In this document: positions 1,709 to 25,979 of the stretch, in pieces
How positions within the stretch are numbered: position 1 is the first letter of the stretch
Layout of the letters: each line of letters opens with the position of its first letter
Source of the DNA: Escherichia phage MLP1
Sequence record: NC_079176
Reading direction: 5' to 3' (one strand)
DNA length: 51,940 bases
Notes under the pieces: generated by a model
Seen by the model: only the letters and a program-made list of their open reading frames with translations
The model's database searches: none
Told to the model about the DNA's origin: nothing
Made by a program: the position numbers and the translations under genes

Positions 1709-2182
1709 ATGCCAAAGCAAGATTGGTCTATTAATACTGGTGCAGCATATGCGGGTGAGCAATATGGCCTGGCTACCACTAACTCTCAGCGACTGACTTT
1801 CAATGCTGAAACTGAAATGGCTAACTTTGGTTTAGCTGTTGTTCAGGGTACTGCTTCTAATCAGGTTAAGCCTGGTATTGGTGTCGACGGCACTGTTCTG
1901 GGCATTACTATGCGCCAGATTAACATCGAATCTGCAACTCGTCCTGGTGACGGTACTGTTGCAATCAAAGCTGGCTGGCCTCTGGGCGTTATGCTGTCTG
2001 GCCCAATCATGGTCAAACTGGTCACTGCAATCACTGATAAGAACATTGGTGTGTCTGCCACTGGTCAATTTGGTGGTGTTGGTGCTGGTTATACTGCCGC
2101 TACCAACCTGACTGCACTTCGCTACCCTGCTGCTGCTGGTGATGTTGTTCCGGTCATGATTAACGTAGTCCCAAAGTCGTAA
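1709..2182 (+). CDS. capsid-associated (decoration-like) protein, zero-frame product
   Basis: 157-aa ORF with AAGGT ribosome-binding site, immediately upstream of major capsid gene; ends at TAA 2180-2182 just after a slippery heptamer. Confidence 0.5.
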   Translation: MPKQDWSINTGAAYAGEQYGLATTNSQRLTFNAETEMANFGLAVVQGTASNQVKPGIGVDGTVLGITMRQINIESATRPGDGTVAIKAGWPLGVMLSGPIMVKLVTAITDKNIGVSATGQFGGVGAGYTAATNLTALRYPAAAGDVVPVMINVVPKS

Positions 2183-2475
2183 CGCCACCTCCAGCACCGA
2201 CCGTTACTGCGGTAGCGGCGGCTGTGACTGCTGATGCTTCAACTACGGATGCTACCGTAACTGTTGATAAACTGTTTACGTTTGCAAACTCTGTTGCTAG
2301 CGACTACAACTTCACTGTTGACCCAGCGGTCGCCGGAGTAACTGTGGCGGCTAATGGTACTATAACTGTTGCAACTGCAACGATTGGTACTGCGACTTCT
2401 GCAACAATCAAAGCAACTCATAAGACTGCTCCTGGTGTAACTGCTACTAAAGCAATCACCATTACGCACCCTTAA
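2170..2475 (+). CDS. Ig-like C-terminal extension reached by -1 frameshift from the 1709 ORF
   Basis: Heptamer C CCA AAG at 2170-2176 in zero frame; -1 frame opens at 2164 right after its own TAA 2161-2163 and encodes a Pro-rich linker (VVTPPPAPTVTA) then a Thr/Val-rich beta-type domain to TAA 2473-2475. Confidence 0.5.
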   Translation, partial: PKVVTPPPAPTVTAVAAAVTADASTTDATVTVDKLFTFANSVASDYNFTVDPAVAGVTVAANGTITVATATIGTATSATIKATHKTAPGVTATKAITITHP

Positions 2476-4766: not shown

Positions 4767-5281
4767 TGGATATTCGACTCGAAGAACTACAGTCCATGAA
4801 AGAGATTGTAGATGTGTGTGTAGGTATTCCAAAGTTTACCTACAACATGCAAATCAATGCTCCCAGACCCCATGGGGAGTATGCCGCAATCAAATGTTTA
4901 TCAAGCACCAACCCAGGCTTTGACGAGAACAGGATAGTAACCATTGATGGTGAAGAAATGTTCCGTACTCGTGGTGTTCGTATTCTGACATTTGCAATAT
5001 TGTTTTCTCGTGAGGGTGATGAATTTATCAAGTTTGATAATTCGTTTTACCGTCCCGATGTTCAAGCCAAATTGAAGCAGGAGAAGTTTGCTGCTCTTGG
5101 TAAAGAACCTTTAAATCTTGCCACCATACAAATGGAAACCAATTGGGAAGTTCGCCAAGCGGTTAAAATGCAATTCAATATCATTCGTGAAGATTTGAGT
5201 CCTATCGGAGTCATGTCTGGCGCACATGTTGGTGGCAACTTCTATGATGGTAATACACTTATCACAACCAAAAAGGTTTAA
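4766..5281 (+). CDS. putative tail completion / sheath-terminator protein
   Basis: ATG 4766 overlaps upstream stop; lies immediately before sheath gene. Confidence 0.3.
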   Translation: MDIRLEELQSMKEIVDVCVGIPKFTYNMQINAPRPHGEYAAIKCLSSTNPGFDENRIVTIDGEEMFRTRGVRILTFAILFSREGDEFIKFDNSFYRPDVQAKLKQEKFAALGKEPLNLATIQMETNWEVRQAVKMQFNIIREDLSPIGVMSGAHVGGNFYDGNTLITTKKV

Positions 5282-5283
5282 TA

Positions 5284-6732
5284 ATGTCAATCCCAATTTC
5301 TGACTTAGTTCAGGTTGATATCGCAATCTCCCCGAACGCCATTGCGACTGATGGTTTTGGGCCGTTGCTCTTCCTGAGCAAAGAGTTTGTACCAACCGTT
5401 GATGTATATCCGGTTCGCTCGTATACCAGTTTGAAAGAAGTTCTCGCAGACTTCCCTGGTGGTGAGATTGCTAAAGCTGCTACCTCTTGGTACTCGCAGA
5501 AGCCAACTCCGAAGACTTTCCTGGTCGGTGCTATCAAGTATGATACTCTGACTCCAGCAACTCCTGCCACTGTTACTGCTGCAACTGCTGCTGTACTGGC
5601 AACGATTAAGCTGGAAACTGCTGCAACCTTGCAACTAAGTGCTAGCGGTGTTCAGTACGTTACTGACCCGATTGATTTCTCTTCTGCTGCCGACTTCGAC
5701 GAAGTTGCAAATTTGGTAACTACTGCACTGTCTTCTGTTGGCGCTGGTGTGACTGTTACTCAGGAAGCTGGTAAGTTTAAACTGACTACCTCTGCAACTG
5801 GCGCTAACGCAACTATCAGCAACGTTGGTGGTAAAGTTGGTGAAGTGTTGAAGCTGCAATCTTCTGACAGTGCAGTTATTGTTGCTGGTAAGAACGAGCT
5901 ATCTATCTCTTCCGACTTGTCTAATATTGCAGATGCTCCATTCAACTTCTTCTATGTAGGCCTTGACCGCCAGTATCGTGGCAAAACCTCTCCAGTAGAC
6001 AACCAAATGTCTGTGGCGAAGTGGTGTGAAGCATCTAGCAAAGTATTTGGCTGGGGTGATAACGACAAGAACATTCTTATCAACGGCACTGATAACAGCT
6101 TCCGTCGTGCTAAGAACCAGAACCTGCGTAACACTCTGTGTGTTTACGATGCTTCTGCGAATGGTGATGAATATCCGGAAATTTCTATCCTGGGTCGTGC
6201 ATCAACTGTCAACTTTAACGTTGCAAACTCTGTTCTTATTCTGGCATACAAGAAAGGTCCAGGTATCTCCACTGCTGACCTGTCTTCTGGTCAGGTAAGC
6301 GCACTGCTTTCTTGTGGTGGTAACGCATTCATTTCTGTTGCTGGCAACGTAATGTTCTACAACGGTCGTATGGCTGATGGCACATGGTTCGACTCCGTAC
6401 AGGGTGTTGAATGGCTGACTCAGAAAGTTCGACTGAACGTGTTCAACTTGTTCTACACCTCCAATACTAAGATTCCTTGGACGGACACTGGTGTAGCAAT
6501 GGTTAACCAGCAAGTAACCCTGGCGCTTGAACTCGCTAAGACTAACGGCCTCATTGCCCCTGGCTATGATAACGAAGGTGTCTTCTATCCAGAAGGCTAC
6601 AAAGTTATTTCTACTCCGTTAGAACTCTTGCAGTCGCAGAAGGGTGAACGTATTTGGGAAGGTACTTCCTTTATTGCTATCGGTTCCGGTGCAATCCAGG
6701 GTGCTGTAATCTCTGGCAACTTCATTCAGTAA
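5284..6732 (+). CDS. tail sheath protein (putative)
   Basis: 482-aa ORF followed by a 151-aa tube-sized ORF, a chaperone pair with frameshift and a tape-measure-like gene: the canonical contractile-tail order. Confidence 0.55.
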   Translation: MSIPISDLVQVDIAISPNAIATDGFGPLLFLSKEFVPTVDVYPVRSYTSLKEVLADFPGGEIAKAATSWYSQKPTPKTFLVGAIKYDTLTPATPATVTAATAAVLATIKLETAATLQLSASGVQYVTDPIDFSSAADFDEVANLVTTALSSVGAGVTVTQEAGKFKLTTSATGANATISNVGGKVGEVLKLQSSDSAVIVAGKNELSISSDLSNIADAPFNFFYVGLDRQYRGKTSPVDNQMSVAKWCEASSKVFGWGDNDKNILINGTDNSFRRAKNQNLRNTLCVYDASANGDEYPEISILGRASTVNFNVANSVLILAYKKGPGISTADLSSGQVSALLSCGGNAFISVAGNVMFYNGRMADGTWFDSVQGVEWLTQKVRLNVFNLFYTSNTKIPWTDTGVAMVNQQVTLALELAKTNGLIAPGYDNEGVFYPEGYKVISTPLELLQSQKGERIWEGTSFIAIGSGAIQGAVISGNFIQ

Positions 6733-6741
6733 GGGTGAACA

Positions 6742-7197
6742 GTGAAGCAATATTCGTTTTATAATACAGACCTCCTGATTGACGGTGCTCGTGTAGACGG
6801 TTTTCAGGCAGGGCAATCTGTAATTACGGCACGCTACAACGTGCCACAGCATGTTCCTGTTATGGATGCTTACGGCAAACTTGCTGTAGCAACCACTGCT
6901 GACCAGTCTGGGATTATCACTTTCCCACTGCTGCAAACGGCAGATTGGAACGAAATCCTCTACCAACGTGCACAGCTTTCTCGTGCAACTGGTTTGTCTG
7001 GTAACAAATCCCTCTGGGAACCTTTGCAGTTGCAGTTGGTTGACAAGATGGGTGATGTTCTGGTTAACGGTGTCAATGGTGCAATTCTGCAACAGCCAGC
7101 AATCGTTCGTGGTGTAACTTTCACTTCGAATATGTGGGCTGTGTTTGTAGAACGCCTTACCATCGTAACTGGCCAGTATCCAGAAATCGGCGTCTAA
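6742..7197 (+). CDS. tail tube protein (putative)
   Basis: 151-aa ORF directly after sheath; GTG start with AAGGGTGA ribosome-binding site. Confidence 0.5.
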   Translation: MKQYSFYNTDLLIDGARVDGFQAGQSVITARYNVPQHVPVMDAYGKLAVATTADQSGIITFPLLQTADWNEILYQRAQLSRATGLSGNKSLWEPLQLQLVDKMGDVLVNGVNGAILQQPAIVRGVTFTSNMWAVFVERLTIVTGQYPEIGV

Positions 7198-7213
7198 TAT
7201 AAGGTAAAAGAGA

Positions 7214-7672
7214 ATGGCTTGTGAACTTCGCCAACGCGAGTTGCAAGCCGACTCTGGTGATATAGTCTTGGTTGGTACACGACAACTCGGTGCCAGCCAG
7301 GCTCTTGACCTCCAGGTCGAGCTTGTTCAGAAACTCGGTATTTCGATATTCCCATTCGTTGAGAATAAATACAACTTTGCAGATATTATTCATTTGATGC
7401 AGCAAGGTGGAACTCATACGGAAGTAACAGAATTAATTAAACGTGTAGTGTGCATGGCAACCATTGATGGTGTCGAAGTTAATCCACGCACTATGCAGAT
7501 GAAGTACAACGGCAATCTAATGCTTATGCACCATGTGTTTGCATTTGTTCTTGAATCGAACTTCCTTGATTTTTTCAAGCAAGGGCTCGAACTCAACGAA
7601 CGCAGACAGTTGGAGGCGGTGGAAGCATCCAAAATGGCCGAGCAGAAGAATTCGAGTCCGGAAACGATTTAA
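7214..7672 (+). CDS. tail assembly chaperone (short form)
   Basis: Acidic 152-aa ORF between tube and tape-measure genes; contains slippery site T TTT TTC. Confidence 0.55.
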   Translation: MACELRQRELQADSGDIVLVGTRQLGASQALDLQVELVQKLGISIFPFVENKYNFADIIHLMQQGGTHTEVTELIKRVVCMATIDGVEVNPRTMQMKYNGNLMLMHHVFAFVLESNFLDFFKQGLELNERRQLEAVEASKMAEQKNSSPETI

Positions 7673-7848
7673 CTCAGAAGTTCCCGGAAATAAAATACTT
7701 CCTGCACCGTCCTGTAATAGAGGACAGTTCTCTCTGTTCTCTTAAAGAACTCTCGGACGGAACCTACTCTATTATGGATTTGTTAACTTTCCACGCAATA
7801 CTTGATTTGCGTAATGAACTAAAACCTAAAGAAGAAGACAATGGCTAA
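7570..7848 (+). CDS. tail assembly chaperone -1 frameshift extension (long form)
   Basis: -1 frame has TGA at 7567-7569 then stays open from the heptamer at 7570-7576 to TAA 7846-7848, overlapping the tape-measure start at 7841. Confidence 0.5.
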   Translation, partial: FFQARARTQRTQTVGGGGSIQNGRAEEFESGNDLTQKFPEIKYFLHRPVIEDSSLCSLKELSDGTYSIMDLLTFHAILDLRNELKPKEEDNG

Positions 7849-10800
7849 GAACTTAAAAGATTTAATGAAGCTATCCGAGGCCGAGCTAATCGGCATGGGT
7901 GCTCAATATGGTCTGTCCTTCAATCCCGGTATGCGCAAACGAGATATGGCTCAGCAACTTGAATCAAGTGCTGCGTCAGGTTGGATGGAAACAAATTCAC
8001 AGCTTTTGGGCGAACCAGATTCCCAAATGTACGAGGAGGAATCCTCTTACGGGACTTCTGATATGATTTCAGATGCAGCACACGTAGCACAGATGATTTC
8101 TGGTGCTGGGCTGACTGAAACATTCCATGCTGCAATGAACGGACCAGGACACCATGTAGAAGCAGTTCACGCATACATGGAACAACTTGGTGTATCCACT
8201 GATGATGTTTGGATGCACATGCCTAAAGCCAACCCCAACAAGTCGGAAGGACATTGGGGAATGCTTAATTCGTACATGCGAGATACTCTTGCAGGTCATC
8301 AAGATATTATGCCTGAACTTGCCGGACATTATACCGGCAATATCATGGATGAATATTCCACAAACCGTGGAGATATTGCCAAGTCGTTTGGTTATCTTGC
8401 CCACATGTATGTTGACCGTGAACAGTACGACAACCCAGACCGCTATGCACGAGATGTTTATCGTGTAGCCAAACGTTTAGAATCAGAATTGCCGCAAAAC
8501 TTCCGAGAAGTTGCTGCCGTATCTGCAATGAATGTAGGAAATAAGTCGGGGCCAAAACTTTCATACATGGATTCATTGCCTCAACTTGGTTCTGAATCTG
8601 TTGTTGGGGATATTCTACATCCTCGACAACCTCTTAACGCATCTGGTCTTCCGATGGGTTCGTTTGGTGGAGGCATTAAGGCTGAATATTCCCTATCTGC
8701 ATCCTTGTCTGGTTCTCCAGGTTGGTCTGATGTAAGCAAGACACTCTACCAAGATGTTTCTGGCGTAGTTAAATCTGCGGCAAAAGTTTATTCTGGTGGT
8801 GCTGAAAGAGGGATGAATGCGTATCGCACTCAATCTTCTGACAGGGATTTGATTCTGGACTCCGCCTCTCGTTATGCAGACATTGCAGACGTTCGTTCTG
8901 GGTACGATAACCTTAAGAAAGATATTGGCGATGACCCTCGTTACTCTGGTTCATCTATTCGTGGCGTTCTTGAGAATGCTCACCAATATAATGAAGCAGA
9001 AGTTTCTCGAACATTTGACCCTGCCGAACGTTTAAGAAATACTGGACCTACTGAACTTAGTACATCCAGTGAGTTTACGGCAAATTTAAATGAACCGACA
9101 AGTTGGAACTCTGCAAGAGATAGAAGAGAGTCTATTGCTATTGCAAATCTCGATAGTGCTAGCGTTGGACAGCATAGTTCGGTTAAGTACCATGATGCGC
9201 TCGAGCAAGGTACGCAGGAGTGGCTTGATTTTCGTAAGCAGTATGATATTACTGGCTCTACTATTGGTGATTATTTGGGCCACAACCCCGCAACCAATAA
9301 TAGCCCAATACATACAATGGGCGAAAAGATTGGCCTCACAGTAAGAAAGGATTCGCCACGAGCGCGTGAGAACTTTGAGCGTGGACATAGATTAGAGGCG
9401 TGGGCGAGGCCCAGGGTAGGTGAACGGTATGGGATTGAGATAACTGAAACTGGTGCAATCACAAACGACAACTACCCTGGCATGATGTACTCGCCGGATG
9501 GGTTAATTGGTGATGATGCTTTGTGGGAACATAAAGCTCCAAATAACTTTAAAGATTTGGAAACAACTCCAAACTACATGGACCAGATGCAACTTGGTAT
9601 GCATTTGAGTGGTCGTAGTCGCACACTGTTTACCCAAACTGTTGGTGAAGAATCTAGAAGTCAGTGGGTTGAAGCCGACCCAACGTGGTTTGAACGTAAC
9701 AAGAACAAGATTGAATCCTCTCAAGCACGTATGAATGCTGGCCGCGAGTTTATGGAAAGCTCCGACCTTGATGGCAAAGACCTTGTTAATGAAACCCGCA
9801 AAGTTATGTCCGGTGATGGGATTTGGGGCTATCAGACTCGTGACCACAGGGAAGGTGAGGGATACACTGCTGGCAAGCGCGGGATGGCTAAATTCAGTGC
9901 CACTGCTGGTACAGCCGATGACCCATTCATAGGCAACCGTACCAGTGCCGGAGTTGGCGAAGCTACAGCCTCTGCCGTAGGCTCTGACAGCACGACTGGC
10001 AATGACCTGATGGCAGTATCTGTCAAGAAAGGTATCCTCGCTGCTCAGGAAGAAAACAAGCTGCGTGGACAAGATGCTGACTTTGGTGGCGATGGTGGTC
10101 GTGGCGGTGGTGGTGGCTTCTGGGATACCTTCGATGCAAGCAGTTACGGCATTGGTGGAGGCGGTTCCGGTGGCGGTGGTCGTGGTGGTTGGAATGTTGG
10201 TGGCAGCTTCTCAGATGACTTCGGTCGTGCTGGTGGTGCATTGGCTGCTGGCGTAGCTGGTGGCAGCATAGGCTCACTATCCAATGGTGCAATGAATGCC
10301 CTCATGATGACCCCGTGGGGACGTGTGGCGGGTATGGCTATCGGTGCTACCCAGATTGGTAACGAGGCGCTCGAAGGTCTGAACGATTTCTACGGAAACT
10401 CTTTAGACGCTGGTGTCAATAACCCTAATGAATATTCTTCCATGTCACAGGGCTTGGAGATGTTAGGGCTTAATCAGCAACAAGCTGGCCGACTCAATCG
10501 AACCACACATAGTGCCTATAACACCCTCCTGAATGGCGACCCTAGCGGCGCTGTCAACATCGTTCAGGGAACCCGTGGTCTTATCACCATTGGCGACATT
10601 CGTGCGGCACAGGGCGACCCTGTAGCCTTAGCGCGGGTAATGCGTGAACGTGGTCAGGAGCGGGGCTGGAGTCAGGCTCGCATCGCTGGTGCTATGGAGA
10701 TGGCAGGACTGGATGGCATGGCTCGCGCCTATGACCGTACAGATTACAGCGTGAACGAGGCTCAGGAGAACGTAAGCCGTGGTGCCAACTCACAGTATGC

Positions 10801-11536
10801 CGATGGTATTGCACAGCTAGGAATAGCGCAGACGGAGCGTGCTGGGGTGCTGCCAGGATACGCAGTCCCGCAAGCTGCAATATCCTACGGGAGTTCATTT
10901 ATCGAAGCAGGTGGAGATGCGGCCAGAGTAGCGCGTACAGCGTCAAATGGTTTAGCTGATACTACCAGAACGGTATATGACTTTATCGCAGGAGAAGAGT
11001 CAGGAAACCGCGATTTGAACGCAGATGGTTCGGTGGTTACATCTCCGACTGGTGCCAAAGGTCGTATGCAGGTTCTTGATTCAACTTCCCGTGACCCAGG
11101 ATTCGGCGTTAAACCTGCCCGTGATAACTCACTGGAAGAGCGTGCTCGCGTTGGTCGTGACTACTATGATGCAATGCTCAAGCGTTACAATGGTGACGCT
11201 GAGAAGGCTATGGCGGCGTATACGGATGGTGCTGGAACTGTTGATGATGCTATCAACAATCACGGAACTGACTGGCTCAATGCTGTTCCTCTACAGGCAC
11301 AGAACCGCGTCAAGAAGTACCGCGAATGGGCTTCTCAAGGTGATTCTATTGCAGAAGGTGCAACTGGCTTCACCAGAAACGGACTGTCCTACGGGCAGAC
11401 ACAGGCCACTGTGGTTAACGTTGAAGTCAAAGCTACCGTAAACAATAAGCAAGCGTCTGCAACCGTGTCAACTCCGAACGGTCAAACTGTTACCCAAACA
11501 ATCAACATGGGTAATGGTGCAATGGAACGTAGATAA
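7841..11536 (+). CDS. tape-measure-like virion protein with internal lambda-exonuclease/YqaJ-like domain, Gly-rich segment and C-terminal lytic transglycosylase domain
   Basis: 1231 aa, between chaperone and baseplate genes. Near aa 450-580: EQGTQEW..R..YDITGS, SPDGL..D..WEHKAP, YMDQMQLGM (compare lambda Exo EQGDDAW..ITAS, SPDGL..LELKCP, YMAQVQYSM). aa 745-790 GGDGGRGGGGG repeats. aa 1050-1130: AGEESG, GAKGRMQV, AAYTDGAG (transglycosylase-like). Confidence 0.6.
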   Translation: MAKNLKDLMKLSEAELIGMGAQYGLSFNPGMRKRDMAQQLESSAASGWMETNSQLLGEPDSQMYEEESSYGTSDMISDAAHVAQMISGAGLTETFHAAMNGPGHHVEAVHAYMEQLGVSTDDVWMHMPKANPNKSEGHWGMLNSYMRDTLAGHQDIMPELAGHYTGNIMDEYSTNRGDIAKSFGYLAHMYVDREQYDNPDRYARDVYRVAKRLESELPQNFREVAAVSAMNVGNKSGPKLSYMDSLPQLGSESVVGDILHPRQPLNASGLPMGSFGGGIKAEYSLSASLSGSPGWSDVSKTLYQDVSGVVKSAAKVYSGGAERGMNAYRTQSSDRDLILDSASRYADIADVRSGYDNLKKDIGDDPRYSGSSIRGVLENAHQYNEAEVSRTFDPAERLRNTGPTELSTSSEFTANLNEPTSWNSARDRRESIAIANLDSASVGQHSSVKYHDALEQGTQEWLDFRKQYDITGSTIGDYLGHNPATNNSPIHTMGEKIGLTVRKDSPRARENFERGHRLEAWARPRVGERYGIEITETGAITNDNYPGMMYSPDGLIGDDALWEHKAPNNFKDLETTPNYMDQMQLGMHLSGRSRTLFTQTVGEESRSQWVEADPTWFERNKNKIESSQARMNAGREFMESSDLDGKDLVNETRKVMSGDGIWGYQTRDHREGEGYTAGKRGMAKFSATAGTADDPFIGNRTSAGVGEATASAVGSDSTTGNDLMAVSVKKGILAAQEENKLRGQDADFGGDGGRGGGGGFWDTFDASSYGIGGGGSGGGGRGGWNVGGSFSDDFGRAGGALAAGVAGGSIGSLSNGAMNALMMTPWGRVAGMAIGATQIGNEALEGLNDFYGNSLDAGVNNPNEYSSMSQGLEMLGLNQQQAGRLNRTTHSAYNTLLNGDPSGAVNIVQGTRGLITIGDIRAAQGDPVALARVMRERGQERGWSQARIAGAMEMAGLDGMARAYDRTDYSVNEAQENVSRGANSQYADGIAQLGIAQTERAGVLPGYAVPQAAISYGSSFIEAGGDAARVARTASNGLADTTRTVYDFIAGEESGNRDLNADGSVVTSPTGAKGRMQVLDSTSRDPGFGVKPARDNSLEERARVGRDYYDAMLKRYNGDAEKAMAAYTDGAGTVDDAINNHGTDWLNAVPLQAQNRVKKYREWASQGDSIAEGATGFTRNGLSYGQTQATVVNVEVKATVNNKQASATVSTPNGQTVTQTINMGNGAMERR

Positions 11537-11542
11537 GAAAGT

Positions 11543-11570
11543 GCCGGGATTCTTCTCGGCATTCTTCTTT
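11543..11570 (+). terminator. intrinsic terminator-like hairpin with U-rich tail
   Basis: GCCGGGA/TCTCGGC stem (one G-U), loop TTCT, then ATTCTTCTTT; directly after the tape-measure stop. Confidence 0.45.
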
Positions 11571-11611
11571 AACATTATTTGAATATGTATTAATTTCAAT
11601 AGGTGTATAAC

Positions 11612-23591: not shown

Positions 23592-23678
23592 CCGGAATTT
23601 GTTCGAACAGTGGTCCGGCTATGTTATAAAAATTTTTATATAATTTTTTTTTTAATTTTAAATATTGTTACGGAATTA

Positions 23679-23921: not shown

Positions 23922-23955
23922 TCCGTGCTGTGCTAACAATGGCACAGGTTTGTGA

Positions 23956-23972
23956 TATTAGTTGGACGTGAA
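23956..23972 (+). promoter_or_regulatory. copy of recurrent 17-bp motif (tATTAGTTGGAcGTGAA), candidate phage promoter
   Basis: Member of an 8-copy family with consensus CATTAGTTGGATGTGAA, all in + orientation; 67 bp upstream of RNAP start. Confidence 0.4.
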
Positions 23973-24038
23973 TTGTGTAATGGCTACGCTATTATAATCC
24001 GTTTCATTCAAATCATACACAATCTTGGAGACTTACAA

Positions 24039-25979
24039 ATGACTACTATCACTACTCAAACTATCAAATCTGTTGTTCCTGCTATCACTGCTCTGGTATA
24101 CCGTGCCAAAGAGAAGCAGAACTACATGGTTCCACAGACTTGTGCTATTGCTGCCTTAGCCATATTCAAGATGATGACGTCTTTCACGCGTGATGACGTT
24201 ATTCCTGCTATCTCGATGGTTGAACTGGCTTCTGCTTCCATTGCTGATGCCAACCGTTACAACAACGACTTAAAGTCAATGCACTATGTTGACCCAGCTA
24301 TCAACCTCATTGGTTTGGCTAAACACTTCGGTTTCATCACCATGAACGAAGACAAATCGTTCCAGATGACTGATGCGTGGGTTGAACTGGTTACAACCAA
24401 AGATACCTCAGTTCCATTCACTGAGCGGGTAACAACTGAATCTCGTCGTAAGCCTTTCGTTAAGGGTGGCAAAGTTAAGCCATCCAAGACTCTGAAAGCT
24501 GCAATCGAATTCCTGCAAGATACTGAATATCACGTTGATGCAACAATGGTTAAGGTTATCTCTTCCATGTTAGAACAACGTACATTTGGTGGCTTACAGA
24601 TGCCAGAAGCAATCCAGACTGAACTCCATGTTTGGAACAATGCTGTAGCAATGGTTGGTCAGGACACTCTGTTCTCTGACTACTTTGCTGATAACCGTGG
24701 TCGTTTATATCACGTAGCATGTGCTGGTCCTAACCCACAATCATCTGACTTTGCTCGTTGCCTGTATTCCCACAATGTTGAGAACACTGTGAGCAAGTTT
24801 AATGCTGATGGTTCAACAACTCTGGCATACAACATGTTCATGCTTGAGCTGGAAGATATTGCTGGTGGAGACTGGACTTCTGCAAAACGTTTAACTTATG
24901 TTGCACAGAATCCTGCTGGTTCTTTGGCTCGTATGCTGAACATGCCTAAAGGTGAGCGTCCTTCCAAGCCATTCACTTATGTTCGTCTGGCTCTGGATTG
25001 GTTCAAGTTTGAGACTACAGGTGAGTGTGATTCTCGTGTAGGCTTTGGCTTAGATGCTAAATGTTCTGGTACTCAATACTTGGCATTCATTGCTGGTAAC
25101 ATGGAGATGGCTCGTGCAACAGGTCTGGTTGATTCTGAGACTAAAGCATCTGACCCATACCAGTTATCTCTTCGTGAACTGTTGAAGTTATTAGACCGTT
25201 CTTCAATGAAACCATCCGCTGAAATTATGGATGAATTCTTGAATCCGAAAGCTGGTCGTAAGTTTATCAAGACTCCATACATGGCTATTCAATATGGTGG
25301 TGGTAAAGCAGCATTAACTGGTTCTTCTGACTTCATTGCATACATGACAGAAGCTCTCCAGATTCCTATGGAGAAAGCTGATGCATTTGCTGAACTGTGT
25401 GTTGAAGCAATTCATAACGCATTGGGTGCTAAGATTAACATGTTCATTGAGAAAGCTGCTGATGCTGCATACAACCGTTGTGTTGAACTCAACAAAGAGT
25501 ACATCACATATAAGCACACTGATGGTCAAGTTGTAATGAAGCCTTGCTTCCCATCTCGTGATGTTTGTGATGCATTCAGCATTCGTGTTGACTCTCAAAC
25601 TCGTGTCATCTTTGGTCAGATTCAGGAAGAGAAACCTTGGACCATTCGTGAGTCCAATCCGACTAAAGAAGAATTCAAACGTACCTTCGTTGTTAACTAC
25701 ATTCAAGGTATTGACGCATTGGTTGCTCGTACTGTTGCAGTCAAAGCTAAAGAAGCTGGTCTTCGTGGCTTTACTTCAATTCACGACTGTTTCCGTTGCT
25801 GCTTAGCTGATGCTCCACTCATGATGGAAGTAATTCGTTCTGCTTATATTGAAATCTTTGTTAATAATAATCAGTTTGAATCTCTATCTAAGCAACTTGG
25901 TGGCATCAACATGTACCATGAGAACATCGTAACAGAAGAGCTTCTGATGAGCGAACACGCTTACTACTTCTGTCAATAA
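24039..25979 (+). CDS. single-subunit T7-type DNA-dependent RNA polymerase, compact form
   Basis: DAKCSGTQY (T7 motif A DGSCSGIQHF), RKFIKTPYMAIQYGGG (motif B), FTSIHDCF (motif C, T7 IHDSFG); ATG 24039 has GGAG ribosome-binding site; ORF track's upstream start at 23952 has none. Confidence 0.85.
   Translation: MTTITTQTIKSVVPAITALVYRAKEKQNYMVPQTCAIAALAIFKMMTSFTRDDVIPAISMVELASASIADANRYNNDLKSMHYVDPAINLIGLAKHFGFITMNEDKSFQMTDAWVELVTTKDTSVPFTERVTTESRRKPFVKGGKVKPSKTLKAAIEFLQDTEYHVDATMVKVISSMLEQRTFGGLQMPEAIQTELHVWNNAVAMVGQDTLFSDYFADNRGRLYHVACAGPNPQSSDFARCLYSHNVENTVSKFNADGSTTLAYNMFMLELEDIAGGDWTSAKRLTYVAQNPAGSLARMLNMPKGERPSKPFTYVRLALDWFKFETTGECDSRVGFGLDAKCSGTQYLAFIAGNMEMARATGLVDSETKASDPYQLSLRELLKLLDRSSMKPSAEIMDEFLNPKAGRKFIKTPYMAIQYGGGKAALTGSSDFIAYMTEALQIPMEKADAFAELCVEAIHNALGAKINMFIEKAADAAYNRCVELNKEYITYKHTDGQVVMKPCFPSRDVCDAFSIRVDSQTRVIFGQIQEEKPWTIRESNPTKEEFKRTFVVNYIQGIDALVARTVAVKAKEAGLRGFTSIHDCFRCCLADAPLMMEVIRSAYIEIFVNNNQFESLSKQLGGINMYHENIVTEELLMSEHAYYFCQ

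What the first reader, a model, noticed from the sequence alone, without database searches (positions are those of the whole stretch)
7570..7848. Tail assembly chaperone -1 frameshift at T TTT TTC
The -1 frame has TGA immediately before the heptamer and then remains open for 90 codons, ending 5 nt into the tape-measure gene. This is the conserved two-product chaperone arrangement of long-tailed phages.
Basis: partly seen in the sequence, partly recalled or inferred. Interest (0 to 1): 0.45.

Follow-up and report, generated by a model that had tools for sequence, protein, structure and literature searches.

The report
Conserved tail-chaperone −1 frameshift site
This phage makes a short and a long version of its tail-assembly helper protein by letting some ribosomes slip back one base at a TTTTTTC motif; the trick is textbook for long-tailed phages, but it is not annotated in any of the 21 related database records I inspected.

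Summary
The window is a phiEcoM-GJ1-like myovirus (Chaseviridae, 97.5% identical to Yersinia phage PYps23T). The gene order is sheath (5284-6732), tube (6742-7197), chaperone G (7214-7672, Pfam Phage_TAC_15) and tape measure (7841-11536).

T_TTT_TTC (7570-7576) lies in the G reading frame and is the only slippery heptamer or tetramer from which a −1 shift gives a long product. The −1 frame then runs 90 codons to TAA at 7846-7848, giving a 211-aa GT protein.

In 25 of 26 related loci, down to about 31% protein identity, the same heptamer sits in the same register. One locus has G_TTT_TTC. Synonymous sites are scrambled elsewhere in the gene, yet the two Phe codons are TTT and TTC in 20 of 20 sequences. 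The −1 part shows coding periodicity, has no conserved start codon, and corresponds to Pfam DUF6889.

I found no conserved stimulatory RNA structure. Transcriptional slippage at the T6 run would give the same protein and is not excluded.

This is a new member of a known kind. None of the 21 GenBank records inspected joins the two reading frames.

A second conserved −1 site (C_CCA_AAG, 2170) extends the capsid cement protein.

The parts
5284..6732 (+). Tail sheath gene (context)
   Evidence: Pfam PF11863 (DUF3383 / E217_gp31_N), E 1.2e-54, and phrog_205 'tail sheath', E 2e-91. Annotated as tail sheath in relatives.
6742..7197 (+). Tail tube gene (context, directly upstream of the chaperone)
   Evidence: phrog_280, E 1.8e-28. 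Weak hit to Pfam PF11681 (KPP10_Orf10 / Phage_Tube_PhiTE). Annotated as tail tube protein in PYps23T and Mangalitsa.
7214..7672 (+). Chaperone gene G, zero frame, 152 aa (short product)
   Evidence: Pfam PF21822 Phage_TAC_15, 54.1 bits against a cut-off of 22. phrog_11820 'tail assembly chaperone', E 1.3e-57. The N-terminal MAC is conserved in almost all relatives.
7567..7569 (+). TGA stop in the -1 frame immediately before the heptamer
   Evidence: It means the -1 frame can be entered productively only at or after 7570. It is not conserved in relatives.
7570..7576 (+). Slippery heptamer T_TTT_TTC in zero-frame register (GAT TTT TTC = D-F-F)
   Evidence: it is the only in-frame heptamer or tetramer in the productive interval. 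It is the only TTTTTTC in the window. It is conserved in 25 of 26 loci. The two Phe codons are TTT and TTC in 20 of 20 sequences, while another conserved Phe uses TTT 10 times and TTC 9 times.
7570..7672 (+). Dual-coding overlap: the variable C-terminal tail of G (zero frame) and the Arg/Gly-rich linker of GT (-1 frame)
   Evidence: substitutions per codon position are flat (0.48 / 0.46 / 0.56). AGGG at 7582-7585 is invariant. That invariance is largely explained by a conserved Gly in the zero frame together with a conserved Arg in the -1 frame.
7576..7848 (+). -1 frame segment 'T': 90 codons plus TAA. With 7214..7576 it gives the 211-aa GT product
   Evidence: The protein is conserved across the family. 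In the window the first ATG, GTG or TTG in this frame is at 7774.
7669..7845 (+). Conserved T domain (L..FP...YL.R.....C....L.DG..S..D...H..LDL), which includes the Pfam DUF6889 match
   Evidence: Pairwise differences per codon position are 0.39 / 0.25 / 0.65 in the -1 frame. 17 of 18 family members hit PF21829 DUF6889, best E 1.8e-9; the window's own sequence scores only E 0.071, below the cut-off. The model shows a disordered linker followed by about 55 helical residues, pLDDT 65.
7583..7591 (+). 5' arm of a candidate long-range stem (GGGCUCGAA), 6 nt after the heptamer. Unconfirmed.
   Evidence: It pairs with 7650-7658 in the minimum-free-energy fold. About 2% of shuffles give an equally good duplex. 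It is seen only in the close clade, both arms are identical there so there is no covariation, and it is not found family-wide.
7650..7658 (+). 3' arm of the candidate stem (UUCGAGUCC). Unconfirmed.
7841..11536 (+). Tape-measure-like gene (context). Its ATG overlaps the end of T (ATGGCTAA).
   Evidence: annotated as tape measure protein in PYps23T. phrog_19855. Pfam SLT domain at aa 1066-1142 and YqaJ domain at aa 460-592.

Best explanation
Gene 7214..7672 encodes the tail assembly chaperone of a Chaseviridae myovirus. It yields two proteins from one start codon.

Most ribosomes read straight through to the stop at 7670-7672 and make the 152-aa G protein. A minority slip back one base while tRNA-Phe occupies both the P site (UUU, 7571-7573) and the A site (UUC, 7574-7576). 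Both tRNAs re-pair with UUU UUU. Translation then continues in the -1 frame from 7576 to the TAA at 7846-7848, giving the 211-aa GT protein. GT consists of the G domain, an Arg/Gly-rich linker and a small helical T domain (Pfam DUF6889).

By analogy with lambda gpG/gpGT, the shared G part should coat the tape-measure protein and the T domain should recruit the tube protein, with neither product ending up in the virion.

Shown here: the sequence anatomy, the chaperone homology, the coding constraint on the -1 frame, and nucleotide-level conservation of the heptamer. Inferred: the slippage itself, its efficiency, and the binding partners.
For: Anatomy.
- The heptamer is in register, TGA precedes it in the -1 frame, and 90 open codons end at the tape-measure start.
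- It is the only in-frame heptamer or tetramer in the productive interval.

Identity and context.
- G matches PF21822 Phage_TAC_15 at 54.1 bits against a cut-off of 22, and phrog_11820 at E 1.3e-57.
- The gene order is sheath, tube, TAC, T, tape measure, in the window and in relatives.

Comparative evidence.
- A tblastn search with the fused protein finds 108 phage records; every one of the 59 listed Chaseviridae rows has the match split into two pieces in different frames.
- Of 26 loci examined, 25 have T_TTT_TTC in register at the end of the conserved N[FY]xDFF motif. It is followed by an 85-106-codon -1 ORF that ends at or near the tape-measure start.
- Around the site the mean column identity is 53%. 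TTTTTC and AGGG are the only invariant blocks.
- Synonymous codon choice is scrambled at other conserved residues (top codon share mostly 28-60%, with two exceptions at 95%; F109 uses TTT 10 and TTC 9). F120 is TTT in 20 of 20 and F121 is TTC in 20 of 20.
- The codon before the heptamer varies in amino acid (GAT, AGT, GCT) but keeps T as its third base.

The -1 frame is coding.
- Differences per codon position are 0.39 / 0.25 / 0.65.
- Invariant residues lie upstream of any start codon. Potential starts vary from genome to genome.
- Gene callers truncate the ORF at inconsistent points inside the conserved domain.

The heptamer is known to be shift-prone.
- U_UU.U_UU.C is shift-prone in E. coli, belongs to the efficient H_HH.U_UU.Y class, and is used by IS elements (PMC4066793).
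- P2 E/E+E' uses TTTTTTG (PMC3091744).
- A GTTTTT motif is conserved in the chaperone genes of Vandenendeviridae and Andersonviridae (PMC12846349).
Against: - There is no experimental detection of the long product for this phage or, as far as the searchable literature shows, for any Chaseviridae member.
- No conserved stimulatory RNA structure was found. Single-sequence folds have z-scores of +0.39 and +0.73. RNAalifold predicts no pairs. A 9-bp long-range stem occurs only in the close clade and shows no covariation. There is no Rfam hit.
- One relative, Faunus, has the non-canonical G_TTT_TTC.
- No natural in-frame G-T fusion was found among 27 T homologues, all 48-115 aa.
- T and A runs of 6 or more are purged from the whole window and the phage encodes a T7-like RNA polymerase. 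An extra U added during transcription would give the identical protein and cannot be excluded from sequence alone.
Confidence: 0.85

Rival explanations
1. Transcriptional slippage. The RNA polymerase, whether the phage's T7-like enzyme or the host's, adds one extra U at the T6 run in a fraction of transcripts. Normal translation of those mRNAs then gives the same 211-aa GT protein.
For: - The site is a homopolymer run.
- T and A runs of 6 or more are almost absent from the window: 2 places, against 78 +/- 10.5 overlapping matches expected. That could reflect a slippage-prone polymerase.
- The window encodes a single-subunit RNA polymerase (PF00940, E 1.1e-17).
- The protein product would be indistinguishable from the ribosomal one.
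Against: - The run is only 6 T, and 5 T in Faunus. It is never longer in any of the 26 loci. Known slippage sites usually need about 8-9 identical bases; this figure is from my own knowledge and was not tested here.
- The zero-frame register and the final C are strictly conserved. Tandem tRNA slippage requires both; polymerase slippage requires neither.
Confidence: 0.08
2. The downstream ORF is an independent small gene, as several GenBank records annotate it (37-73 aa 'hypothetical protein'). It would be translated from its own internal start codon, and the heptamer would be incidental.
For: Records for phiEcoM-GJ1, 2KOFFS, PM1, Myduc, SppYZU05, BUCT696 and pAh6-C call a separate small CDS there. 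Pfam holds it as a stand-alone family, DUF6889.
Against: - There is no conserved start codon. In the window the first ATG, GTG or TTG is at 7774, downstream of most invariant T-domain residues.
- Called starts fall at different points inside the conserved block and replace conserved residues with Met.
- The -1 frame stays open back to the heptamer in all 26 loci, including stretches annotated as intergenic.
- Independent initiation does not explain the frozen synonymous sites of the heptamer.
Confidence: 0.04
3. Artefact: a homopolymer sequencing error in what is really one ORF, or a chance open frame in a non-coding spacer.
For: Homopolymer runs are error-prone in some sequencing chemistries.
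Against: - The same T6 and the same two-frame layout appear in 25 independently sequenced genomes and metagenome contigs.
- The zero frame always continues for 14-36 more codons to its own stop.
- The -1 segment shows coding periodicity and conserved residues.
Confidence: 0.01

Closest known systems
Phage lambda gpG / gpGT tail assembly chaperones (Levin et al. 1993; Xu et al. 2004, 2013, 2014; summarised in PMC5009743)
   Same: There are two products from one start by a -1 shift at a heptamer. The gene lies between the major tail (tube) gene and the tape-measure gene. The -1 extension ends at the tape-measure gene. The long form is expected to be the minor one.
   Different: - This is a myovirus, not a siphovirus.
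- The heptamer is T_TTT_TTC, not G_GGA_AAG.
- The shift is 31 codons before the G stop (14-36 in relatives), so G has a private, poorly conserved tail.
- No sequence similarity to lambda G or T families was detected.
Phage P2 gpE / gpE+E' (Christie et al. 2002; described in PMC3091744)
   Same: It is a contractile-tailed phage. The -1 shift occurs at a poly-T heptamer (TTTTTTG), between the tube and tape-measure genes. No downstream hairpin is found.
   Different: The last base is C, not G. The proteins are larger (152 and 211 aa against 91 and 142 aa). No Pfam match to P2 E families was found; G is Phage_TAC_15 and T is DUF6889.
TAC-N / TAC-NC locus of Vandenendeviridae (Pakpunavirus, KPP10-like) and Andersonviridae, with an invariant GTTTTT motif (PMC12846349)
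   Same: These are myoviruses with a related structural module; the window's tube protein gives a weak hit to the KPP10_Orf10 family. The downstream piece is routinely mis-annotated as a hypothetical protein. A poly-T slip motif sits at the end of the conserved N-terminal chaperone domain. Faunus carries exactly G_TTT_TTC.
   Different: It is a different phage family. Here the canonical full heptamer T_TTT_TTC is the rule, in 25 of 26 loci. I did not test homology between the T domains.
-1 frameshift sites with defined stimulators (dnaX, IS911, IS3; PMC4066793)
   Same: The same tandem-slippage heptamer logic applies. U_UU.U_UU.C is itself used by some IS elements.
   Different: No upstream Shine-Dalgarno-like element can be read in 7550-7569. 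No conserved downstream hairpin or pseudoknot was found.

Membership tests
G/GT-type tail assembly chaperone with programmed -1 frameshift | The gene pair lies between the major tail/tube gene and the tape-measure gene | tested here: met
   Sheath 5284-6732, tube 6742-7197, G 7214-7672, T to 7848, tape measure from 7841. The same order is seen in 21 GenBank loci and 4 metagenome loci.
G/GT-type tail assembly chaperone with programmed -1 frameshift | The upstream ORF is a tail assembly chaperone homologue | tested here: met
   PF21822 Phage_TAC_15 at 54.1 bits (cut-off 22). phrog_11820, E 1.3e-57.
G/GT-type tail assembly chaperone with programmed -1 frameshift | The second ORF is in the -1 frame, overlaps the 3' part of the first, and has no start codon of its own | tested here: met
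   The -1 frame is open from 7570 to 7845. The first possible start is at 7774. Start positions are not conserved across relatives.
G/GT-type tail assembly chaperone with programmed -1 frameshift | A slippery X_XXY_YYZ heptamer in zero-frame register inside the overlap | tested here: met
   T_TTT_TTC at 7570-7576. It is the only in-frame heptamer or tetramer in the productive interval.
G/GT-type tail assembly chaperone with programmed -1 frameshift | The heptamer and the two-frame layout are conserved in diverged relatives, beyond what the protein sequence requires | tested here: met
   25 of 26 loci have the heptamer. TTT and TTC are used in 20 of 20 sequences, whereas synonymous sites are scrambled elsewhere.
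G/GT-type tail assembly chaperone with programmed -1 frameshift | The -1 segment is under protein-coding selection | tested here: met
   Pairwise differences per codon position are 0.39 / 0.25 / 0.65. There are 11 invariant residues in the T alignment.
G/GT-type tail assembly chaperone with programmed -1 frameshift | Both products are made in a fixed ratio, both are needed for tail assembly, and both are absent from virions | not testable with these tools
   This needs immunoblot or mass spectrometry of infected cells, plus genetics.
G/GT-type tail assembly chaperone with programmed -1 frameshift | The G part binds the tape-measure protein and the T part binds the tube protein | not testable with these tools
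   Inferred from lambda (PMC5009743). The T-domain model has modest confidence (pLDDT 65) and matches only members of its own family.
Pfam PF21829 (DUF6889) | Score above the family gathering threshold of 23.9 bits | tested here: inconclusive
   The window's own T segment scores 13.3 bits, E 0.071. However, 17 of 18 aligned orthologues match at E of 1 or better, best 1.8e-9. Database homologues carry a precomputed PF21829 annotation.
P2 gpE / gpE+E' protein family | Sequence homology to the P2 E and E' proteins | tested here: not met
   There are no Pfam hits other than TAC_15 and DUF6889, even at E up to 10. The resemblance is one of mechanism and gene position only.
-1 frameshift with an RNA stimulator (hairpin or pseudoknot 5-9 nt downstream) | A conserved downstream structure supported by covariation | tested here: not met
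   Fold z-scores are +0.39 and +0.73. RNAalifold predicts 0 pairs. Anchored duplex test: mean z -0.47 across 18 sequences, and about -2.4 only in four near-identical sequences. No Rfam match.
Programmed transcriptional slippage site | A long homopolymer run (typically 8-9 or more), with no requirement for codon register | tested here: not met
   The run is T6 in 25 loci and T5 in one, and is never longer. Register and the final C are strictly kept. The length threshold is from my own knowledge.

The most novel reading that the evidence does not exclude
Chaseviridae may rely on stimulator-free, sequence-autonomous frameshifting at two sites in one structural operon: T_TTT_TTC in the chaperone gene and C_CCA_AAG in the cement protein gene. 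The genome has otherwise been purged of A and T runs. The invariant context around the chaperone site (N[FY]xDFF nascent peptide, AGGG 6 nt downstream) might then act as a new kind of stimulator, or set an unusually high GT:G ratio, rather than being a by-product of dual coding.
Probability: 0.1. Interest if true: 0.5.

Novelty: new member of a known kind. Interest (0 to 1): 0.28.

Why it matters
The mechanism is the classic tail-chaperone frameshift, so it does not change any concept. Its value is practical.

- None of the 21 Chaseviridae GenBank records I inspected joins the two reading frames. The T segment is either left as "intergenic" or called as a 37-73-aa hypothetical protein with an arbitrary start.
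- Pfam holds that same segment as a family of unknown function, DUF6889.
- Recognising it as the frameshift-encoded C-terminal domain of Phage_TAC_15 chaperones corrects the annotation of a whole phage family. That family includes therapeutic and biocontrol candidates against E. coli, Yersinia, Erwinia, Pectobacterium, Aeromonas and others.
- It also provides a clean natural example of U_UUU_UUC use without an evident stimulator.

Tried and rejected
1. **Downstream stimulatory RNA.** Single-sequence folds were not better than shuffles. RNAalifold on 18 sequences gave no pairs. An anchored duplex test showed that the 9-bp stem 7583-7591 / 7650-7658 is limited to four near-identical sequences, with no covariation. 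Rfam gave no match. I keep the stem only as an unconfirmed candidate.

2. **Invariant AGGG (7582-7585) as a signal.** It is largely explained by a conserved Gly in the zero frame overlapping a conserved Arg in the -1 frame. The choice of A over C is free in only about 5 sequences, which is too few to argue from.

3. **Natural in-frame G-T fusions.** These would prove that the two parts form one protein. A profile search with the T domain found 27 homologues, all 48-115 aa, and no fusion.

4. **Fold of the T domain.** The AlphaFold model is of modest quality: pLDDT 65, a disordered linker followed by four helices. Foldseek against viral models found only the same ORF in phiEcoM-GJ1 and PM1. Profile searches of GT and of T against PDB sequences found nothing significant.

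5. **Promoter or terminator in 7673-7840.** This would suggest a true intergenic spacer. Only weak consensus matches appeared, at the rate seen in shuffles.

6. **Literature.** I found no paper describing this frameshift in Chaseviridae and no paper mentioning DUF6889.

7. **TGA before the heptamer as a functional feature.** Rejected, because it is not conserved.
Full report
**What the window is.** The region 5200-11600 is 97.5% identical to Yersinia phage PYps23T. It is 80-96% identical to a set of Escherichia, Yersinia and Shigella phages of the family Chaseviridae (subfamily Cleopatravirinae, phiEcoM-GJ1-like myoviruses). The window also encodes a T7-like single-subunit RNA polymerase at 23952-25979 (PF00940).

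Around the finding the + strand carries these genes:
- a tail sheath gene, 5284-6732 (PF11863, phrog_205);
- a tube gene, 6742-7197 (phrog_280, with a weak PF11681 hit);
- a 152-aa ORF, 7214-7672;
- a 1231-aa tape-measure-like gene, 7841-11536, with an SLT domain and an embedded YqaJ domain.

**Check of the observation.**
- TTTTTTC is at 7570-7576. The zero frame reads GAT TTT TTC (D-F-F), so the motif is in X_XXY_YYZ register.
- The -1 frame has TGA at 7567-7569 and is then open to the TAA at 7846-7848.
- After the slip there are 90 sense codons (7576-7845). The last one ends 5 nt into the tape-measure gene, whose ATG is at 7841.
- It is the only in-frame heptamer in the gene. Its two overlapping tetramers are the only in-frame Z_ZZN motifs in the interval where a -1 shift would give the long product.

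**Is it chance?**
- Only 3.0% of in-frame positions in long + strand ORFs have 90 or more open codons in the -1 frame.
- Of 41 in-frame XXXYYYZ heptamers in ORFs of at least 100 aa on both strands, only two are followed by a -1 ORF that runs past the zero-frame stop. One is this site. The other is at 2170.
- TTTTTTC occurs once in the 51.9-kb window, against 17.9 +/- 4.0 in dinucleotide-preserving shuffles.
- This depletion is not specific to the heptamer. T or A runs of 6 or more occur at only two places, 7570 and a T10 run at 23644-23653. That gives 6 overlapping TTTTTT matches, against 78 +/- 10.5 expected.

So the genome avoids such runs in general, and the only one kept inside a gene is at this site.

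**Identity of the upstream ORF.** ORF 7214-7672 matches Pfam PF21822 (Phage_TAC_15) at 54.1 bits, against a gathering score of 22. It matches PHROG 11820 "tail assembly chaperone" at E 1.3e-57 over its full length. Together with its position between the tube and tape-measure genes, this makes it the tail assembly chaperone.

**Comparative evidence for the frameshift.**

A tblastn search with the fused 211-aa protein finds 108 phage records. Hosts include Escherichia, Yersinia, Shigella, Erwinia, Pantoea, Pectobacterium, Proteus, Aeromonas, Shewanella and Vibrio. In every one of the 59 listed Chaseviridae rows the match is split into two pieces in different frames; the sixtieth row, an unrelated Caudoviricetes contig, matches only part of the T domain in a single piece.

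I fetched 21 of these loci. I also fetched four more divergent metagenome loci, found through homologues of the T domain.

- In 25 of the 26 loci (window included), T_TTT_TTC is present in zero-frame register at the same place. That place is the end of the conserved motif N[FY]xDFF, which closes the conserved G domain.
- It is followed by a -1 ORF of 85-106 codons that ends at, or a few bases from, the tape-measure start.
- The exception, Erwinia phage Faunus, has GAG TTT TTC. It keeps a homologous -1 ORF.

Around the site the nucleotide alignment has a mean column identity of 53%. The only invariant blocks are TTTTTC and AGGG.

Codon usage gives the strongest test.
- At most residues conserved in 90% or more of 20 non-redundant sequences, synonymous codons are scrambled, with the commonest codon holding 28-60% (C3 and N116 are exceptions at 95%). 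Another conserved Phe, F109, uses TTT 10 times and TTC 9 times.
- F120 is TTT in 20 of 20 and F121 is TTC in 20 of 20.
- The codon before them changes amino acid (GAT Asp, AGT Ser, GCT Ala) but keeps T as its third base.

This is selection on the nucleotides of the heptamer, not on the protein.

**The -1 segment is a coding sequence without its own start.**
- Downstream of the G stop, pairwise differences per codon position in the -1 frame are 0.39 / 0.25 / 0.65, the signature of purifying selection on a protein.
- The alignment has 11 invariant residues in the pattern L..FP...YL.R.....C....L.DG..S..D...H..LDL.
- In the window the first ATG, GTG or TTG in that frame is at 7774, downstream of most of these residues. 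Across relatives the possible starts are scattered or absent.
- Gene callers have produced ORFs of 48-115 aa that begin at different points inside the conserved block, with Met replacing conserved residues.
- In the overlap region the periodicity is flat (0.48 / 0.46 / 0.56). The G-only tail varies in length (14-36 codons) and in sequence. The overlap therefore encodes a poorly constrained G tail and an Arg/Gly-rich GT linker.

**What the T domain is.**
- 17 of 18 orthologous T segments match Pfam PF21829, DUF6889, a 40-residue family of unknown function. The best E-value is 1.8e-9. The window's own sequence is below threshold, at 13.3 bits against 23.9.
- The 27 homologues found among 5.8 billion proteins are all short fragments. 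The four whose contigs I read lie in the same gene order: terminator, sheath, tube, TAC_15, DUF6889, tape measure with YqaJ.
- DUF6889 is therefore best read as the C-terminal half of the frameshift-encoded T domain of Phage_TAC_15 chaperones. No paper in the library mentions it.
- A structure model built on 28 sequences gives a disordered first 28 residues and about 55 helical residues, at modest confidence (pLDDT 65).
- Foldseek against viral models returns only the same ORF from phiEcoM-GJ1 and PM1. PDB sequence searches return nothing significant.
- I found no natural in-frame G-T fusion.

**Mechanism.**

The most likely mechanism is tandem -1 slippage of two tRNA-Phe molecules from UUU UUC to UUU UUU. 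Both re-pair fully in the new frame.

In E. coli, U_UU.U_UU.C is among the heptamers that shift above 0.1% without any stimulator. It belongs to the efficient H_HH.U_UU.Y class and is used by IS elements. U_UU.C is the second most shift-prone tetramer (PMC4066793). That last point also makes the Faunus variant G_UUU_UUC plausible.

The closest precedents are these:
- P2 E/E+E' at TTTTTTG, with no downstream hairpin (PMC3091744);
- the conserved GTTTTT motif at the end of the TAC-N genes of Vandenendeviridae and Andersonviridae (PMC12846349);
- lambda G/GT. There the shared G part binds the tape measure, the T part recruits the tail tube protein, the ratio is about 30:1, and neither product is in virions (PMC5009743).

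The roles I assign to G and T rest on that analogy and were not tested.

**Stimulators.** I found none that is conserved.
- Folds of 7570-7690 and 7577-7640 are no better than shuffles (z +0.39 and +0.73).
- RNAalifold on 18 sequences predicts no pairs.
- There is no Rfam hit.
- No Shine-Dalgarno-like element can be read in 7550-7569.
- A 9-bp long-range stem, GGGCUCGAA at 7583-7591 with UUCGAGUCC at 7650-7658, starts 6 nt after the heptamer. It is found in the window, phiEcoM-GJ1, 4HA13 and PM1, where about 2% of shuffles do as well. Both arms are identical in those four, so there is no covariation. The signal disappears across the family (mean z -0.47).
- The invariant AGGG is largely accounted for by a conserved Gly (GGG) in the zero frame overlapping a conserved Arg (AGG) in the -1 frame.

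**Rivals.**
- *Transcriptional slippage* at the T6 run would produce the same protein. The scarcity of A and T runs and the phage's own RNA polymerase give it some colour. Against it, the run is never longer than 6 and is 5 in Faunus. The codon register and the final C are also strictly kept, and only ribosomal slippage requires them.
- *An independent small gene* is contradicted by the lack of a conserved start and by conserved residues upstream of any start.
- *A sequencing error or a chance ORF* is excluded by 25 independent sequences with the same layout and by the coding signature.

**Novelty.** The kind is textbook. What is new is the family.
- None of the 21 GenBank records I inspected carries a joined CDS. 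The T segment is either unannotated or called as a separate hypothetical protein.
- I found no paper describing the site in Chaseviridae.

**Seen in passing.** A second, equally well-conserved -1 site lies in the capsid cement protein gene (1709-2182, PF22758).
- C_CCA_AAG at 2170-2176 sits two codons before the stop.
- It opens a 99-codon -1 ORF, a Pro-rich linker followed by a Thr/Val/Ala-rich domain, which fills the otherwise empty gap before the major capsid gene.
- The same heptamer and ORF occur in PYps23T, phiEcoM-GJ1, 4HA13 and SSEM1. In SSEM1 the piece is annotated as "Ig domain containing protein".
- C_CC.A_AA.G is the most efficient heptamer measured in E. coli (PMC4066793).

Noticed in passing
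window 1709-2475 (+), heptamer at 2170-2176: There is a second likely programmed -1 frameshift. The capsid cement protein gene (1709..2182, Pfam PF22758 Phage_cement, E 1.5e-16) has C_CCA_AAG in register two codons before its stop. The -1 frame then runs 99 codons (a Pro-rich linker plus an Ig-like-looking domain) to TAA at 2473-2475. This fills the ORF-free gap before the major capsid gene (2520) and gives a 255-aa fusion. The heptamer and a 99-100-codon -1 ORF are conserved in PYps23T, phiEcoM-GJ1, 4HA13 and SSEM1. None of these records joins the CDS; SSEM1 calls the piece 'Ig domain containing protein'.
   Followed up: partly
window 7841-11536 (+); YqaJ about 9218-9616, SLT about 11036-11266: The tape-measure-like protein (1231 aa) carries an embedded YqaJ-like (RecE/lambda-exonuclease-type) nuclease domain at aa 460-592 (E 5.9e-11), a Gly-rich low-complexity stretch, and a C-terminal SLT lytic transglycosylase domain. 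The YqaJ hit recurs in the equivalent gene of the metagenome relatives. A nuclease fold inside a tape measure is unusual and I have no explanation for it.
   Followed up: no
whole window; T10 run at 23644-23653 (+): Homopolymer T or A runs of 6 or more are almost absent. TTTTTT gives 6 overlapping matches at 2 places, against 78 +/- 10.5 expected, and there is no A6 on the + strand. The only run other than the frameshift site is a T10 about 300 nt upstream of the T7-like RNA polymerase gene (23952-25979).
   Followed up: no
related loci L002, L003, L006, L008, L014, L017, L020; Pfam PF21829: GenBank records call the T segment as separate hypothetical proteins of 37-73 aa with inconsistent starts. 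Pfam DUF6889 appears to be built on such fragments. In PYps23T and 2KOFFS the tube gene is also annotated with a late start (336 nt, against 456 nt elsewhere), and pAh6-C has a truncated G (110 aa).
   Followed up: partly
search hit H24, PP952070.1: A record labelled 'Staphylococcus phage Pel53' (host Staphylococcus hyicus) matches this enterobacterial Chaseviridae tail module at 80.5% nucleotide identity, as close as phiEcoM-GJ1 does. The host label looks doubtful.
   Followed up: no
window 7838-7848 and the equivalent positions in relatives: The T stop overlaps the tape-measure start as ATGGCTAA in many relatives, or as TGATG / TAATG in others. This suggests possible coupling of tape-measure initiation to termination of GT translation. 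The overlap is absent in a few distant loci, which have gaps of 10-18 nt.
   Followed up: no
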